A DNA stretch of 64,000 nucleotides from a phage (GCA_016658885.1 GCA_016658885.1_4807.1), one strand, 5' to 3'. Numbered from the stretch's first letter, positions 1 to 4,091 are shown. The notes: generated by a model not told the origin, from the letters alone. Numbers and translations are program-made.

Positions 1-168
1 ATCTTCCTCTTCGAGTTCCGTAAATTCGCTAAAATCGATAGGACTATGAAGCTCTTCGATAGTTGCATCTACGTTAAAGAGATAAACGTTTTTAAGTTTT
101 TCGCCAAATACGTTAGAGTTTTCGGAAGTTTCGACGCGAGCGGAACGGATAGCGGCTAAAGTAATCAT
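1..168 (-). CDS. hypothetical protein, 5' part only (gene runs off left edge)
   Basis: Open frame to position 1 on minus strand; ATG at 166-168 preceded by AGGAGA SD (ctaggagaatattATG); not in supplied ORF track because truncated. Confidence 0.45.
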   Translation of the reverse strand, partial: MITLAAIRSARVETSENSNVFGEKLKNVYLFNVDATIEELHSPIDFSEFTELEEED

Positions 169-220
169 AATATTCTCCTAGTTAGTCGGGAGGGTAGCGA
201 CCTATTCGCTACCTCATCCC

Positions 221-265
221 CTCTCGATATAAAACATTATAGTCTTAGTGTACGAAGAAGTAAAG
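221..265. repeat. 45-bp imperfect direct repeat, copy 1 (CTCTCGATATAAA...GTGTACGAAGAAGTAAAG)
   Basis: Matches 621-663 over about 38 of 45 positions; lies just upstream of the start of minus-strand gene 276..635. Confidence 0.5.
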
Positions 266-275
266 CACTTTTTCG

Positions 276-635
276 TTATTCTGCGATAAAATATTTATAA
301 GCTTTATCGCCTTCTACGTCGATATACTCGACGATAATTAACGCTTCGCCGCGAGGCGTAACCGTCTCGATAAGGGTAACGGCTTCGTCGTCGGTCTTCG
401 CGAAGCGGATGGCGCTACATTCGGCGTACTTCATATCATCGAAGGAAAGGCCGATGAAGGCGACCGCGCGGACCTTAATGGCGCTAGATTCTAGTTCCGC
501 GTTAACGGCGGCGATAAGAGAGCGAACGGTTAAGCGGTCTTCGTCGTAAGTAAGGATGGAAGAGATTAAAGTAGTCATAATAAAGCTCCCGATGCTAGTA
601 GAAGAAAGGGCCATCGCCCGTCTCGATATAAACAA
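276..635 (-). CDS. hypothetical protein
   Basis: 119-aa ORF; SD GGGAG then TTTATTATG start context shared with neighbouring genes. Confidence 0.5.
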   Translation of the reverse strand: MFISRRAMALSSTSIGSFIMTTLISSILTYDEDRLTVRSLIAAVNAELESSAIKVRAVAFIGLSFDDMKYAECSAIRFAKTDDEAVTLIETVTPRGEALIIVEYIDVEGDKAYKYFIAE

Positions 636-663
636 GTATACGCGAGTGTACGAAGAAGTAAAG
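621..663. repeat. 45-bp imperfect direct repeat, copy 2
   Basis: Second copy of the element at 221-265; followed by inverted copy of GTAAAGCACTTT at about 702-714. Confidence 0.5.
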
Positions 664-706
664 AAAAAAGATAAAATAATTTATCGCATTTTTATCGAAA
701 AAGTGC

Positions 707-734
707 TTTACTTTTTTCTACACTATATTATAAT
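707..734 (+). promoter_or_regulatory. candidate sigma70-like promoter (TTTACT-N16-TATAAT) for rightward genes 803..1824
   Basis: -10 TATAAT at 729-734, -35-like TTTACT at 707-712, about 70 bp upstream of RBS and ATG at 803. Confidence 0.35.
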
Positions 735-802
735 GTACTCATATCGGGACGGGATGAGTTAACGAATAGGTCGTTAACGCCTCTCCCAACTAGGAGTTTA
801 TT

Positions 803-1117
803 ATGGCTATCGTTACCCGCTTTACCCTCGAAAACGCAACCGCCGAAGTCCAGGGCGTTACGCTTACTTACGGCGAAATTCTCGCGAAATTCTCCGGCGT
901 TCGCTTAGGCGAAGAAATTAACGACGCGACGGTAATCGAGCAACTCGCTGCTTCTCGCTTAGAGCGCGACGAAAACGGATTCTTCGAAGTCGATGCGGAA
1001 TTAAATTTATGCGGTAAAACGGCGTTTATTAACGAGTTCGAACTCGCCGTTTTAGTTAATTACGATAGCAAAGCTTACGCCTTCGCCCTCGAATTAATCG
1101 AAGACGACGAAGAGTAA
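803..1117 (+). CDS. hypothetical protein
   Basis: 104-aa ORF; SD TAGGAG and start context TAGGAGTTTATTATGG identical to that of gene 1198; strong GAA/NNC codon bias, TCGA-rich. Confidence 0.6.
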   Translation: MAIVTRFTLENATAEVQGVTLTYGEILAKFSGVRLGEEINDATVIEQLAASRLERDENGFFEVDAELNLCGKTAFINEFELAVLVNYDSKAYAFALELIEDDEE

Positions 1118-1197
1118 GAGAGGATTTTTAGAGCGTCGTGCGCGGCGCTTTAATAAAATTCTTTCGCGCCTAGCGCCCTAACAAATAGGAGTTTATT

Positions 1198-1824
1198 ATG
1201 GTTAGCTTAAATCGCTTTTCTACTAGCGGCGACGTTATCGCAACTAAGACCGCCGACCTCGTTGCATTCTATAATGCAAATTCCGGCTCAAAACCGATTA
1301 AGAAGTTTGCGGACCGCCGGACCGCCGAGACTCGCGTAATCGCGTTAATCGAGTCCTTAAACGCGCTCGATGCGCCGTCCAACGAATCGCCCATCCCCGA
1401 CGCTAAGCCGCGCGAGGAAGTGTCCAGCGATGTAAAAACGCATAAGGCGCGTGCGGTCGTTAAAAAGGCTGAGCCTACCCAGGAAGAACTCGACGCGATG
1501 ACCGACGAAGAATATGAAGCCTTCGTTAAGAGCGGTTTAAACGATAGTGCAAATTGCGTAGTGCAAAATGGAACTCCTTCCCATCGCCGTTCGAATAGCG
1601 AAGGTATTGCAAAAAGCTGGGATAATAAGGAAGTGGCGCAAAAGCGTCTCACCCGTAACGGCGTTATGGTCGAGGGTGTAGGCGAGTTCAAATCGGTCCG
1701 CGTAGCGTTCGGCGCGCTGGGATTACCGGATAGCAAGCACATTCGCTTCCGCATGAAGCTTAAGGAAGCTGGGCGCTTGAACTTCGAGTTCGGCAACAAG
1801 TCCTACACCTTCCAGATTATCTAA
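1198..1824 (+). CDS. hypothetical protein
   Basis: 208-aa ORF; identical RBS/start context to 803; contains two 11-mer motif copies near 1544-1569. Confidence 0.6.
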   Translation: MVSLNRFSTSGDVIATKTADLVAFYNANSGSKPIKKFADRRTAETRVIALIESLNALDAPSNESPIPDAKPREEVSSDVKTHKARAVVKKAEPTQEELDAMTDEEYEAFVKSGLNDSANCVVQNGTPSHRRSNSEGIAKSWDNKEVAQKRLTRNGVMVEGVGEFKSVRVAFGALGLPDSKHIRFRMKLKEAGRLNFEFGNKSYTFQII

Positions 1825-1831
1825 TCGAATG

Positions 1832-1853
1832 GCGGCCCTTCGGGGTCGCTTTT
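1832..1853 (+). terminator. candidate rho-independent terminator (GC stem with UUCG tetraloop, then TTTT)
   Basis: gcggccc-ttcg-gggtcgc hairpin followed by tttt immediately after stop of gene 1198..1824. Confidence 0.45.
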
Positions 1854-1874
1854 CATAGTGCAAATTGGTGGCTT

Positions 1875-2138
1875 ATGAATACTCTCATTCTCATCGCTAC
1901 GTTGTCCATCGGAAGTGGTCGCACCTTATCCCTTTATGATCATAGTGCAAATTGCGCTTACCCAACGCGCGTTGCGGCAATAGTTAATAGTGCAAATCGA
2001 ATGCTATTCGAGACTTGTTGGCGGGTCGATAACGAGAAAGGTCGGGTAGTCTTAGGTTATAGTGCAAATCTGCTGGTGGAGTCGTTCGATTGGACGGTTG
2101 AAGGTCGTAAATTGTTACGGAAAGTGACTAAAAGATGA
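1875..2138 (+). CDS. doubtful ORF (87 aa) spanning three 11-mer copies
   Basis: ORF with GGTGG SD, but its length coincides with 11-mer copies lying in frame (HSAN, NSAN, YSAN); may be non-coding. Confidence 0.2.
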   Translation: MNTLILIATLSIGSGRTLSLYDHSANCAYPTRVAAIVNSANRMLFETCWRVDNEKGRVVLGYSANLLVESFDWTVEGRKLLRKVTKR

Positions 2139-2252
2139 CTTATAATAATACACTTTCTAACGCGTTTATGGTTGTAACCTTCCCCATCGTATTACCGATG
2201 GCCCTAGAAGTGGAGAAAATGTGTTCTAGGGCCGTTTTATAGTGCAAATTGG

Positions 2253-2741
2253 CTAGTGGCGGGAGAATTGCTCACCTTCTTTGGCCGCCTCTCCAAAATC
2301 CTTGTAGAAATCGTCCATAGAACGGCCCATTTTACTATTGCCGTTTTCATCAATCATCGTGATGCCGTAGATGATATTCAGTTCACGAATAGCATTAAGC
2401 TTGGCTGATGCCGCGACTTCTGGATCACGCACAAGCTTGACCAAATTGTGAATTGCACCTTTTACGCTCCATAAATCCTTGAGTGGCATTTCTTCCATAC
2501 GCTTTTTGAAGCGCATTTTGTAGTACGGATTGCGTTGTGCGCAAAGGATTCGCTGGCCAGTGTAGTTATCCGTTGCAACTTCCATTCCAAATACTAGTGC
2601 AAAAGCTGCGCGCATGTCATGGCCCTGAATAACAAGGTCAATGAACTCATCGAATAAAGCCTGATTGTGCTCTGCAAATCGCGGGTCTTCAAAGTCTTCA
2701 GGCATCGCTACATAATCTTGACTCATAGTGCAAAATCCCAT
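2253..2741 (-). CDS. hypothetical protein
   Basis: 162-aa ORF (alternative start at 2726, MSQDYV); no clear SD; overlaps motif copies at its 5' end. Confidence 0.45.
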   Translation of the reverse strand: MGFCTMSQDYVAMPEDFEDPRFAEHNQALFDEFIDLVIQGHDMRAAFALVFGMEVATDNYTGQRILCAQRNPYYKMRFKKRMEEMPLKDLWSVKGAIHNLVKLVRDPEVAASAKLNAIRELNIIYGITMIDENGNSKMGRSMDDFYKDFGEAAKEGEQFSRH

Positions 2742-2949
2742 AGTGCAAATTAATAGTGTGAATTATACAATGGATGGACATTATATTCAAGTGCAGATTG
2801 ATGTTCATTATGGCTATAAACGTACACAAATCATAGTGCTGAATGGATAACGGACCGTGGTGCGTGGTGTACTGTTTGATACGAATAAAAGAAATCCATC
2901 CCTTTCGCCGCTTGCTATGCAAATCAAAGACTTAGCCGCTGCTGGCTGG

Positions 2950-3320
2950 TTGAAGCGTATCATGACGTATCATCCGTATTGCCGCAAGTCTTTGTTTTTA
3001 CTTATATATTACGGATGATACGTTAAATATATAAATTAACATAAGTATGAGGATGTAGAAAAAAATTAATTTAAATTAATTCAAAATGGAGTTAATTAAT
3101 TTTTCAAATTATATATATAACGATGCCCAGTTTTATCCGTATCATCCGTAAGATTAATGTACAAGCCAGGCGCGGCAAGGGCTGTACACTGATACGGATA
3201 AAAAACCATGACGTATCATGACGTAAGGGTGTACCAATTTGGAAAGGATGAATCCAGGAACGGCGCGGCCTGTAGCCATGATACGCTTAATTTTTAACCG
3301 TATTTTAAGCGTATCAAATG
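2950..3320. promoter_or_regulatory. iteron-like hub A: tandem/inverted 9-bp repeats (ACGTATCAT / ATCCGTATC family) flanking an about 100-bp core of over 90 percent AT
   Basis: cgtatcatgacgtatcatccgta (2955-2978), tacggatgatacg (3010-3022), AT core 3025-3125 with AAATTAATTTAAA palindromes, atccgtatcatccgta (3133-3150), catgacgtatcatgacgta (3209-3227). Confidence 0.55.
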
Positions 3321-3557: not shown

Positions 3558-4091
3558 TTATCCGCTGACCTTCCAGTCACCATTCCTTTTATCACGCTTC
3601 TTTAACTCCGTTTTAATGACATTATTATCCACAATAACTCCTAAACGGCGCAATTCACACATGACCTTGTGGCGATATTGTCGAAGCTTTTTGACGTCCA
3701 TTGTGCTCCTTGAATAAGATAATACCATAAAAATAATATCATCATTCATCTTGTAGCGCATACAAGTTTTATAATGCCTTTTGAAAATAGCATTAACGGC
3801 ATCTGTTTTCAGCAATTCATCCATTAATTCTTGATTCCCTTCACAGACGTTAATGACCCATTCATCCCTTGATTTTGCCGCTTTCAATCCCCTTAGAGTT
3901 AATAACTCATATAATGCCTTTCTGCACTTAGAGCAATCACCAATTGTCAAACTTGATTCCATTTCTTGAGCATCGGTCAACTCTGTATTGCCTTTGCTGA
4001 ATTTACCGCACAAGCTGATTTGCTCGCCGTCGTCAAAGTAGTGGGCAAGTTTTGAGTATCGCGGCTTGCCCCATCCTGCAACGTTACCCAT
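3558..4091 (-). CDS. hypothetical protein (Cys-rich)
   Basis: ATG at 4089-4091 with AAGGAGG SD; ATGA overlap with upstream gene; ORF track start at 4094 is GTG. Confidence 0.55.
   Translation of the reverse strand: MGNVAGWGKPRYSKLAHYFDDGEQISLCGKFSKGNTELTDAQEMESSLTIGDCSKCRKALYELLTLRGLKAAKSRDEWVINVCEGNQELMDELLKTDAVNAIFKRHYKTCMRYKMNDDIIFMVLSYSRSTMDVKKLRQYRHKVMCELRRLGVIVDNNVIKTELKKRDKRNGDWKVSG

What the first reader, a model, noticed from the sequence alone, without database searches (positions are those of the whole stretch)
1544..2844. Dense same-orientation array of the 11-mer ATAGTGCAAAT
Seven exact copies (starting at 1544, 1855, 1942, 1987, 2059, 2239, 2740) and about five one-mismatch variants fall within 1.3 kb, all on the same strand and irregularly spaced. 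They lie both inside and between ORFs. An exact 11-mer is expected far less than once by chance in this length. No regular repeat-spacer structure exists, so it is not CRISPR. The pattern fits a protein-binding array, such as a partition centromere, an origin iteron set, or a packaging or regulatory site.
Basis: seen in the sequence. Interest (0 to 1): 0.7.

Follow-up and report, generated by a model that had tools for sequence, protein, structure and literature searches.

The report
Polar DNA motif array around small terminase
A short DNA word is repeated about a dozen times, always on the same strand, around the small-terminase (DNA-packaging) gene at one end of this E. coli phage genome and in eight related phage lineages; it is most likely the long-sought DNA target of that packaging protein, but this is not proven.

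Summary
There are 7 exact ATAGTGCAAAT copies against 0.06 expected. The 9-mer core TAGTGCAAA occurs 10 times, all on the + strand within 1545-2749, and nowhere else in the 64 kb.

The window is a Wifcevirus, an E. coli myovirus. The array lies inside the ~3.7-kb direct terminal repeat, 325-1540 bp from a physical genome end at window 3087. It surrounds a minus-strand gene (2253-2741) that encodes the small terminase TerS (E = 6e-34 to the solved Pseudomonas phage E217 TerS).

The same word (consensus RATYYGCACTAY on the TerS strand) forms co-oriented arrays around TerS in 8 lineages: 75 copies forward and 0 reverse in seven pooled, 12 and 0 in the eighth. Their TerS proteins are only 41-68% identical. 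In one shared gene the motif bases are 94% identical against 41% for the rest of the gene.

Array presence tracks replacement of an otherwise invariant TerS glutamate by Gln/Lys/Arg. Eighteen Glu-type loci lack the array.

Best reading (about 0.45): terminase recognition signals. Main rival: a Chi-like, end-polar signal, because true Chi arrays share the same place and strand in sister genera. Centromere, iteron origin and CRISPR readings are not supported. The motif appears undescribed.

The parts
1544..1554 (+). Motif copy, exact ATAGTGCAAAT, inside the 208-aa ORF (codes D-S-A-N)
   Evidence: Absent from phage Eco4M-7, where a block is replaced.
1558..1568 (+). Motif variant GTAGTGCAAAA (9-mer core intact)
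1855..1865 (+). Motif copy, exact, intergenic, immediately after a terminator hairpin and T-run; followed by TGGTGG
   Evidence: Invariant in 9 Wifcevirus genomes.
1942..1952 (+). Motif copy, exact, inside the 87-aa ORF (H-S-A-N)
   Evidence: Positionally conserved in Pantoea phage PA1.
1987..1997 (+). Motif copy, exact, inside the 87-aa ORF (N-S-A-N)
2059..2069 (+). Motif copy, exact, inside the 87-aa ORF (Y-S-A-N); 2 nt upstream of a Chi site. Three relatives have the variant ATAGTGCGAAT.
2239..2249 (+). Motif copy, exact, directly after the terminator hairpin 2200-2238; followed by the Chi-like GCTAGTGG at 2252
2594..2604 (+). Motif variant CTAGTGCAAAA, antisense inside the TerS gene
   Evidence: Invariant in 9 genomes.
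2725..2735 (+). Motif variant ATAGTGCAAAA, overlapping the annotated TerS start codon (CAT at 2724-2726)
2740..2750 (+). Motif copy, exact, overlapping the upstream alternative TerS start codon, in the TerS 5' leader
2753..2763 (+). Motif variant ATAGTGTGAAT, over the predicted TerS transcription start
2833..2843 (+). Degenerate copy ATAGTGCTGAA; this position is an exact ATAGTGCAAAT in phage Eco4M-7, indicating copy turnover
1271..1281 (+). Weak outlying copy ATAATGCAAAT (GCACTA core broken); membership doubtful
2253..2741 (-). Small terminase (TerS) gene; relatives annotate the start at 2726
   Evidence: phmmer E = 6e-34 to PDB 7UXE, the E217 TerS. The AF2 model's top fold hit is 7UXE. The Mansfield ortholog is annotated as TerS.
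2762..2790 (-). Sigma-70-like promoter for TerS (TTGAAT-17-TATAAT)
   Evidence: Consensus match only.
3087..3088 (.). Boundary of the direct terminal repeat, which is the TerS-proximal physical genome end. The DTR runs from before window position 1 to 3087.
   Evidence: WFC has an exact 3784-bp DTR whose position 1 maps to window 3087. A PhageTerm-predicted DTR in Mansfield has the same start.
2072..2079 (+). Chi site GCTGGTGG, oriented to act on RecBCD entering from the end at 3087
   Evidence: Orientation logic follows PMC12315714.
1875..2138 (+). 87-aa ORF with a signal-peptide-like N-terminus; real gene found only in array-bearing lineages; hosts three motif copies

Best explanation
The array is a set of strand-polar recognition sites for the phage's own packaging enzyme. 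The small terminase TerS is encoded in the middle of the array. The sites mark the TerS-proximal end of the direct terminal repeat in replicating concatemers. Terminase would then be recruited, or armed as it translocates, in a defined orientation, and would cut at the repeat boundary 325 bp beyond the last copy. Many redundant, irregularly spaced copies would make recognition near-certain even if each single site is read inefficiently.

Shown: the array, its polarity, its DNA-level conservation, its position relative to TerS and the genome end, and its co-occurrence with one TerS sequence type.

For: (1) The array surrounds the TerS gene in all 8 lineages that have it, from about -110 to +1200 relative to the TerS start. 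Known pac and cosB sites lie in or beside TerS genes (PMC9611059).

(2) It lies 325-1540 bp from a defined physical end inside the DTR.

(3) Polarity is strict: 75 forward and 0 reverse copies over 7 lineages, and 12 forward and 0 reverse in L172.

(4) Selection acts at the DNA level. In the shared 87-aa gene the motif bases are 31/33 identical between Wifcevirus and PA1, against 89/219 elsewhere, and extra copies occur in other reading frames. Within the genus, 3/88 motif columns vary against 309/1844 in the background (p = 3e-4).

(5) Co-variation with TerS. A residue that is Glu (once Asp) in all 37 homologs outside the clade is Gln/Lys, or Arg in phage Kyle (a locus sequence), followed by Arg in every array-bearing lineage. 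It sits at the end of a helix, just before a basic helix, in the N-terminal HTH-type domain. Eighteen Glu-type loci lack the array. These include equally distant outgroups (L173-L175) and the enteric phages MyoSmar and PCSE1.

(6) No match to any Rfam family, and no promoter-like context shared by the copies.
Against: All array-bearing lineages form one TerS clade, so the co-variation could reflect a single evolutionary event and any other clade-specific reader.

Myosmarvirus has the same DTR and TerS architecture but no such array and no evident substitute.

A different repeat, GCGGC[A/T], lies between the end and TerS across the whole TerS family. It is an equally good or better candidate for the core TerS site.

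A spread over more than 1.2 kb with irregular spacing is unlike characterised pac and cos sites.

The homologous E217 TerS showed no appreciable DNA binding in vitro.

No binding or genetic data exist for this motif.
Confidence: 0.45

Rival explanations
1. A Chi-like, end-polar signal. The motif would be read on one strand by a helicase-nuclease or exonuclease that enters at the TerS-proximal end, such as RecBCD (possibly phage-modified) or another end-processing enzyme. It would attenuate degradation and/or trigger recombination between the terminal repeats. Redundant copies would compensate for imperfect per-site recognition.
For: The distribution is the same kind as that of true Chi arrays, which occupy the same place and the same strand in sister lineages. 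Counts of correctly oriented Chi against inverse are Kyle 9/0, PA1 7/0, L169 6/0, L171 5/0, L172 6/0 and Myosmarvirus 4-5/0 exact octamers (up to 8 with one mismatch). One lineage carries Pseudomonas-type Chi at 6/0.

Abundance is partly complementary. Wifcevirus and L168 have the motif but only 0-1 Chi. Myosmarvirus has Chi but no motif.

Several copies abut Chi within 0-7 nt (window 2059/2072).

Terminally clustered, oriented Chi is an established phage strategy in P1 and LLS-type lambdoid phages (PMC12315714).
Against: No enzyme is known to recognise this sequence, and E. coli RecBCD recognises GCTGGTGG. Enteric relatives (MyoSmar, PCSE1) do without it, so a general host reader is not indicated. 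The relative order of motif and Chi is not fixed (5' of Chi in the window, 3' of Chi in PA1 and Kyle). Co-location with Chi is expected anyway for any end-proximal element.
Confidence: 0.2
2. Operator or silencing sites for a clade-specific phage DNA-binding protein that is not TerS. This protein would control or shut off the early genes and the TerS promoter in the terminal repeat, as SPO1 TF1 does in its terminal redundancy.
For: Three copies cover -3 to +35 of the predicted TerS promoter in the window, and L168 has five copies within 112 nt upstream of TerS. The repeat carries strong sigma-70-type early promoters.
Against: Kyle and PA1 have no copy at the TerS promoter. No copy overlaps the three conserved early promoters at 236-264, 635-662 and 707-734. 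Most copies are deep inside coding sequence. Strict co-orientation is unnecessary for operators. No candidate regulator was found among the DTR ORFs.
Confidence: 0.12
3. A replication origin. The copies would be initiator-binding sites next to the 20% G+C stretch at 3000-3130, which would serve as the unwinding element.
For: Repeated short sites lie within 240 bp of a strongly AT-rich segment. Primase genes lie just upstream of TerS in Pbunavirus relatives.
Against: Spacing is irregular, and copies spread over more than 1.2 kb and through three genes, unlike known iteron origins. No initiator gene is adjacent. The AT-rich stretch coincides exactly with the terminal cut site flanked by inverted repeats. 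Relatives with the same replication genes lack the array.
Confidence: 0.08

Closest known systems
Lambda cosB (R1-R3 gpNu1-binding sites beside the Nu1 gene) and cosQ (polar termination signal)
   Same: Short asymmetric sites lie just inside a genome end and next to the small-terminase gene. Orientation relative to the cut matters. They are read by terminase at initiation (cosB) or while translocating (cosQ).
   Different: Lambda has three 16-bp sites within about 120 bp plus an IHF site and makes cohesive ends. Here there are 10-13 copies of a 12-mer spread over 1.2-1.5 kb, mostly inside genes, in a phage with a 3.7-kb direct terminal repeat. Binding is untested.
pac sites of P22, Sf6, SPP1 and P1 (within or at the 5' end of the TerS gene; P1 pac has seven hexamer repeats)
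   Same: The location is in and around the TerS gene, and the elements are repeated short sequences (SPP1 boxes, P1 hexamers).
   Different: Those are headful packagers with compact sites (22-270 bp). Here the ends are precise and the array is far more extended and strictly co-oriented.
Chi (GCTGGTGG) clusters near phage ends (P1 terminal redundancy; LLS-type lambdoid phages)
   Same: The sites are strictly oriented relative to one DNA end, irregularly spaced, tolerated inside genes and redundant. True Chi arrays occupy the same region and strand in sister genera.
   Different: The sequence is different, no known reader exists, and the motif is restricted to one phage clade rather than matching a host-wide signal.
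Pseudomonas phage E217 TerS (PDB 7UXE)
   Same: The protein encoded inside the array is a clear homolog (E = 6e-34). Its gene is likewise far from TerL.
   Different: E217 is a Pbunavirus; a member of that genus (Banzai) shows headful, permuted packaging. E217 has the Glu-type TerS and no array, and its TerS did not bind DNA in vitro.

Membership tests
Terminase recognition site (pac/cosB-type) | Lies in or beside the small-terminase gene | tested here: met
   The array spans the TerS gene, which was identified by E = 6e-34 to 7UXE, in all 8 lineages.
Terminase recognition site (pac/cosB-type) | Lies close to the site where terminase cuts (the genome end) | tested here: met
   The nearest copy is 325 bp from the DTR boundary, which maps to window 3087. 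The ends come from the WFC record and from the PhageTerm prediction for Mansfield, not from this isolate.
Terminase recognition site (pac/cosB-type) | Specifically bound by TerS | not testable with these tools
   Only indirect evidence: a Glu to Gln/Lys/Arg switch in the TerS N-terminal domain tracks the array.
Terminase recognition site (pac/cosB-type) | Required in cis for packaging | not testable with these tools
   Needs genetics or a transduction assay.
Terminase recognition site (pac/cosB-type) | Sequence co-varies with the cognate TerS across relatives | tested here: inconclusive
   Presence or absence tracks the TerS type perfectly (8 array lineages against 18 Glu-type loci tested). 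However, the array lineages form a single clade and the core GCACTA never changes within it.
Chi recombination hotspot | Sequence 5'-GCTGGTGG-3' (enteric) recognised by RecBCD | tested here: not met
   The motif is RTAGTGCRRATY. Only one true Chi (2072) and one near-Chi (2252) are in the repeat.
Chi recombination hotspot | Orientation fixed relative to the DNA end from which the enzyme enters | tested here: met
   The motif is on the same strand as correctly oriented Chi in every lineage, with 0 reverse copies.
Iteron-type replication origin | Closely and regularly spaced direct repeats next to an initiator gene and an AT-rich unwinding element | tested here: not met
   Spacing is 13-355 bp with no phase. 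There is no Rep-like ORF. An AT-rich stretch exists, but it is the terminal cut region.
Partition centromere (parS/parC) | Repeat cluster adjacent to parA/parB-type genes | tested here: not met
   The seven ORFs tested in and just beyond the repeat gave no Pfam hit to Par proteins. The phage is virulent.
CRISPR array | Regular repeat-spacer periodicity | tested here: not met
   Spacing is irregular and repeats are 11-12 nt.

The most novel reading that the evidence does not exclude
The 12-mer is a phage-private, Chi-like 'self' signal. It would be read on the 3'-ending strand by an end-entering helicase-nuclease, for example host RecBCD retargeted by a phage factor or an as yet unknown enzyme. 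It would protect the first-exposed genome end and/or fire recombination between the terminal repeats. In function it would be interchangeable with the host Chi arrays that sister genera carry at the same spot.
Probability: 0.15. Interest if true: 0.85.

Novelty: new variant of a known kind. Interest (0 to 1): 0.62.

Why it matters
How small terminases pick out viral DNA is still unresolved. For this family a structure exists (E217 TerS), but no DNA target is known and no binding was detected.

A conserved, strictly oriented 12-mer array wrapped around the TerS gene, together with a single lineage-specific change in the TerS DNA-binding domain, gives a concrete oligonucleotide and a concrete point mutant to test. 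It also offers a candidate cis-signal for how long direct terminal repeats are cut, a process for which I know of no defined signals.

If the array instead turns out to be Chi-like, it would be a new class of end-protection or recombination signal.

Practically, knowing the packaging signal matters for engineering and rebooting these fast-replicating therapeutic-type phages.

Tried and rejected
- **Promoter reading.** Copies share no -35 or extended -10 context, and three clear sigma-70 early promoters lie elsewhere. The motif is absent from the other 60 kb, so it is not a phage-specific middle or late promoter.
- **RNA element.** No Rfam match. The copies are sense to some genes and antisense to TerS.
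- **Peptide repeat.** Four in-gene copies encode x-S-A-N. However, copies also occur in non-coding DNA, antisense in TerS, and in other reading frames in Kyle and PA1.
- **Mobile-element remnants.** Similarity does not extend beyond about 13-14 nt.
- **DnaA box, sigma-54 -12 element, NrdR half-site, CytR half-site, marbox.** These were compared from memory only. Each fails at invariant motif positions, and none was pursued.
- **The 208-aa ORF and the 87-aa ORF as candidate readers.** The 208-aa protein also occurs across Pbunavirus, Serratia, Xanthomonas and other relatives that lack the array. The 87-aa protein has a signal-peptide-like N-terminus.
- **Literature search for the motif string.** It found only unrelated primers.
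- **Lineage-specific substitute motif in Myosmarvirus.** None was convincing.
- **The E217 TerS paper (PMC10026623).** It could not be read.

Full report
**1. The observation**

ATAGTGCAAAT occurs exactly seven times, at the stated starts and all on the + strand. The chance expectation for the whole 64-kb window is 0.06.

Allowing mismatches adds 1271 and 2725 (one mismatch), 1558, 2594 and 2753 (two mismatches), and a weaker copy at 2833. The 9-mer core TAGTGCAAA occurs ten times, only within 1545-2749, and never on the opposite strand or elsewhere in the window.

Spacing ranges from 13 to 355 bp with no period. Similarity between copies does not extend beyond about 13-14 nt. The copies sit in several contexts:
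- inside the 208-aa ORF (1198-1824);
- three inside the 87-aa ORF (1875-2138);
- directly after two terminator hairpins (1855, 2239);
- antisense within ORF 2253-2741;
- as a triple (2725, 2740, 2753) over that ORF's start codons and leader.

**2. Where this is**

The window is a Wifcevirus, an E. coli/Shigella myovirus of about 68 kb. It is 91-96% identical to WFC, WFH, Mansfield and the BASEL phages Bas98-101.

The WFC record carries an exact 3784-bp direct terminal repeat (DTR). Its first base maps to window 3087, and window 1-3087 is 97% identical to WFC 3087-1. Korf et al. report a repeat of about 3.7 kb for WFC and WFH. For Mansfield, PhageTerm predicts a 3673-bp DTR opening at the same place.

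The whole array therefore lies inside the DTR, 325-1540 bp from one physical genome end. That end sits in a 20% G+C stretch between inverted repeats at 2996-3022 and 3138-3164.

**3. The gene in the middle**

ORF 2253-2741 on the minus strand has no Pfam hit. It does match the solved small terminase of Pseudomonas phage E217 (PDB 7UXE) at E = 6e-34 over nearly its full length. An AlphaFold model built from 7 sequences (pLDDT 73.6) has 7UXE as its only significant fold match, followed by the PaP3 and NV1 TerS structures. Mansfield's ortholog is annotated as TerS.

According to the TerS review, the E217 TerS gene is about 58 kb from TerL, and E217 TerS showed no appreciable DNA binding in vitro.

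**4. Conservation**

Within nine Wifcevirus genomes, the eight copies from 1855 to 2753 show 3 variable columns out of 88, against 309 of 1844 in the surrounding alignment (Fisher p = 3e-4). Copy turnover is visible. Eco4M-7 lacks 1544 and 1558 but has an exact copy at 2833.

The cross-genus evidence is much stronger. Pantoea phages Kyle and PA1 (Kylevirus; TerS 41-42% identical, flanking DNA not alignable) carry 14 and 13 co-oriented GCACTA-core copies in and just downstream of TerS, with none reversed. Kyle has a 3603-bp DTR with the same layout.

Five further lineages came from metagenome assemblies and have TerS 47-68% identical to the window's. Their forward/reverse copy counts are:

| Locus | Forward | Reverse |
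|---|---|---|
| L168 | 10 | 0 |
| L169 | 9 | 0 |
| L170 | 7 | 0 |
| L171 | 11 | 0 |
| L172 | 12 | 0 |

Pooling seven lineages gives 75 forward and 0 reverse copies. The consensus on the TerS-sense strand is R-A-T-Y-Y-G-C-A-C-T-A-Y, with GCACTA invariant.

In the homologous 87-94-aa gene, motif nucleotides are 31/33 identical between Wifcevirus and PA1, against 89/219 for the rest of the gene. Kyle and PA1 also have extra copies in other reading frames. The selection therefore acts on DNA, not on the S-A-N peptide.

**5. Who has it and who does not**

Eighteen other loci of the same TerS family lack the array. They are Pbunavirus E217 and Pa193; Myosmarvirus TropicalSun, MyoSmar (L044) and its relative L041; Salmonella PCSE1; Xanthomonas XcP1; Burkholderia BcepF1; seven metagenomic lineages; and the nearest outgroups L173-L175.

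A Pbunavirus (phage Banzai) shows headful, permuted packaging, and its authors expect this for the whole genus. MyoSmar, however, has a PhageTerm-predicted 3559-bp DTR with the same end-TerS layout and still no array. The array is therefore not simply a DTR attribute.

Presence of the array tracks one change in TerS. Among 44 database homologs, the residue aligned with Gln64 is Glu (once Asp) in all 37 outside the clade. It is Gln or Lys, followed by Arg65, in the seven inside the clade, and Arg-Arg in Kyle, a locus sequence outside the 44.

In the model, this pair closes helix 56-65. It comes just before the Asn-Pro turn and the basic helix YYKMRFKKRMEE, within the N-terminal domain that corresponds to the TerS HTH region (domain assignment follows the review).

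There is a caveat. The array-bearing lineages form one TerS clade, so this may be a single historical event.

**6. Best mechanism**

I favour terminase recognition, at about 0.45. The reasons are these:
- a candidate reader with an HTH-type domain is encoded in the array itself;
- the array lies beside the terminal cut, as cosB and pac sites do;
- strict polarity fits either oriented loading or a signal read by a translocating terminase, as with lambda cosQ;
- redundancy fits inefficient single-site reading.

Whether the array acts at initiation or termination depends on the packaging direction, which is unknown. The Chi orientation described below suggests the TerS-proximal end is the RecBCD-exposed end. 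By inference that would make it the end packaged last and injected first, so the array would immediately precede the termination cut. This step is inference only.

**7. What weakens that reading**

- Myosmarvirus manages the same architecture without the array.
- A different co-oriented repeat, GCGGC[A/T], occurs 2-5 times between the end and TerS in nearly the whole family (45 forward and 8 reverse over 20 loci). Its first copy is 100-130 nt from the end in all three DTR genera (window copies at 2934 and 2980). It is at least as good a candidate for the ancestral TerS site.
- The extent (more than 1.2 kb) and irregular spacing are unlike characterised pac and cos sites.

**8. The main rival**

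True Chi sites form co-oriented arrays in the same region and on the same strand in Kyle (9), PA1 (7), L169 (6), L171 (5), L172 (6) and Myosmarvirus (4-5 exact octamers, up to 8 allowing one mismatch). They always have the orientation that acts on RecBCD entering from the TerS-proximal end. One lineage has Pseudomonas-type Chi arranged the same way (orientation logic and Pseudomonas Chi from PMC12315714).

Wifcevirus and L168 have the 12-mer but only 1 and 0 Chi sites. In the window, Chi at 2072 follows copy 2059 by 2 nt, and the near-Chi GCTAGTGG at 2252 follows copy 2239 by 2 nt.

This partly complementary, interleaved pattern suggests the 12-mer could be a Chi-like polar signal. No reader is known, other enteric phages lack it, and the order of motif and Chi is not fixed. 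I give this reading about 0.2.

Operator (0.12) and origin (0.08) readings fit fewer facts. Details are in the rival entries.

**9. Known or new**

TerS and the DTR are already annotated for Mansfield. A full-text search for the motif strings found nothing relevant, and the genome papers read do not mention the array. I rate it as a new variant of a known kind: a packaging-type cis-signal with an unusual, Chi-like architecture. There is a minority chance that it is a genuinely new polar signal.

**10. Verdict**

Function is unproven. Interest is 0.62, mainly because the finding turns an open question (what this TerS family recognises) into a simple binding and recoding experiment.

Noticed in passing
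window 2072-2079 (+) and 2252-2259 (+); L011 255-1972; L018 3861-5433; L016, L041, L044, L169, L171, L172: Correctly oriented Chi (GCTGGTGG on the strand ending 3' at the TerS-proximal end) forms co-oriented arrays in the terminal repeats of Kylevirus, Myosmarvirus and several metagenomic relatives, with 0 in the inverse orientation. Wifcevirus keeps only one Chi plus one near-Chi. L038 shows the same pattern with Pseudomonas-type Chi (GCGCCAGC on the TerS strand, 6/0).
   Followed up: partly
window 2934-2940 and 2980-2986 (minus-strand sense); 100-530 nt upstream of TerS in L003, L011, L012, L014, L016, L033, L040-L042, L044, L046 and others: A family-wide co-oriented repeat, GCGGC[A/T](A), occurs in 2-5 copies between the genome end (or its equivalent) and the TerS start (45 forward and 8 reverse over 20 loci). 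The first copy is 100-130 nt from the physical end in Wifcevirus, Kyle and MyoSmar. It is a candidate ancestral TerS or pac element.
   Followed up: partly
window 2956-3225: The terminal-repeat boundary (3087/3088) lies in a 20% G+C spacer between 27-nt inverted repeats (2996-3022 and 3138-3164). These belong to a CGTATCATCCGTA / TACGGATGATACG repeat family (2966, 3010, 3138). CGTATCATGACGTA also appears at 2956 and 3212. This is a likely cleavage-site architecture.
   Followed up: partly
window 236-264 (-), 635-662 (-), 707-734 (+); 247-265 = 645-663: Three copies of one sigma-70-type early promoter module (TTTACT-16/17-TATAAT or TATACT) share a 19-nt identical block and form large inverted repeats (166-230/741-805 and 246-278/693-725). 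They drive divergent small genes in the terminal repeat.
   Followed up: no
window 787-823 and 1182-1218: A duplicated 37-nt ribosome-binding and start region (..TAGGAGTTTATTATGG..) precedes two consecutive early ORFs.
   Followed up: no
window 1875-2138 (+): This small ORF (87 aa) has a signal-peptide-like N-terminus and two conserved Cys. It is found directly downstream of TerS in most array-bearing lineages (not called in L169), and no homolog was seen in the relatives compared by tblastx. Three motif copies and, in relatives, two Chi sites are embedded in its coding sequence.
   Followed up: partly
L010 (Mansfield) 3843-3884, outside the window: A tandem 7-bp repeat, CGACCCA x6, lies about 170 bp beyond the far boundary of the terminal repeat. 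It is reminiscent of the short repeat series flanking the T7 terminal repeat (from memory).
   Followed up: no
L017 (BcepF1) +383 to +2030 from TerS; L012 (E217) -301 to -223: Other lineages show their own one-strand k-mer clusters near TerS: CGTTCATCG 7/0 in the Burkholderia phage, and CCCACCATC x5 at 13/26-nt spacing upstream of E217 TerS. Their meaning is unknown.
   Followed up: no
window 1-2250 versus 2250-3100: By eye, the early-gene part of the repeat is unusually rich in CG-containing codons (TCG, CGC, GCG) compared with the TerS gene and the rest of the genome. This was not quantified.
   Followed up: no
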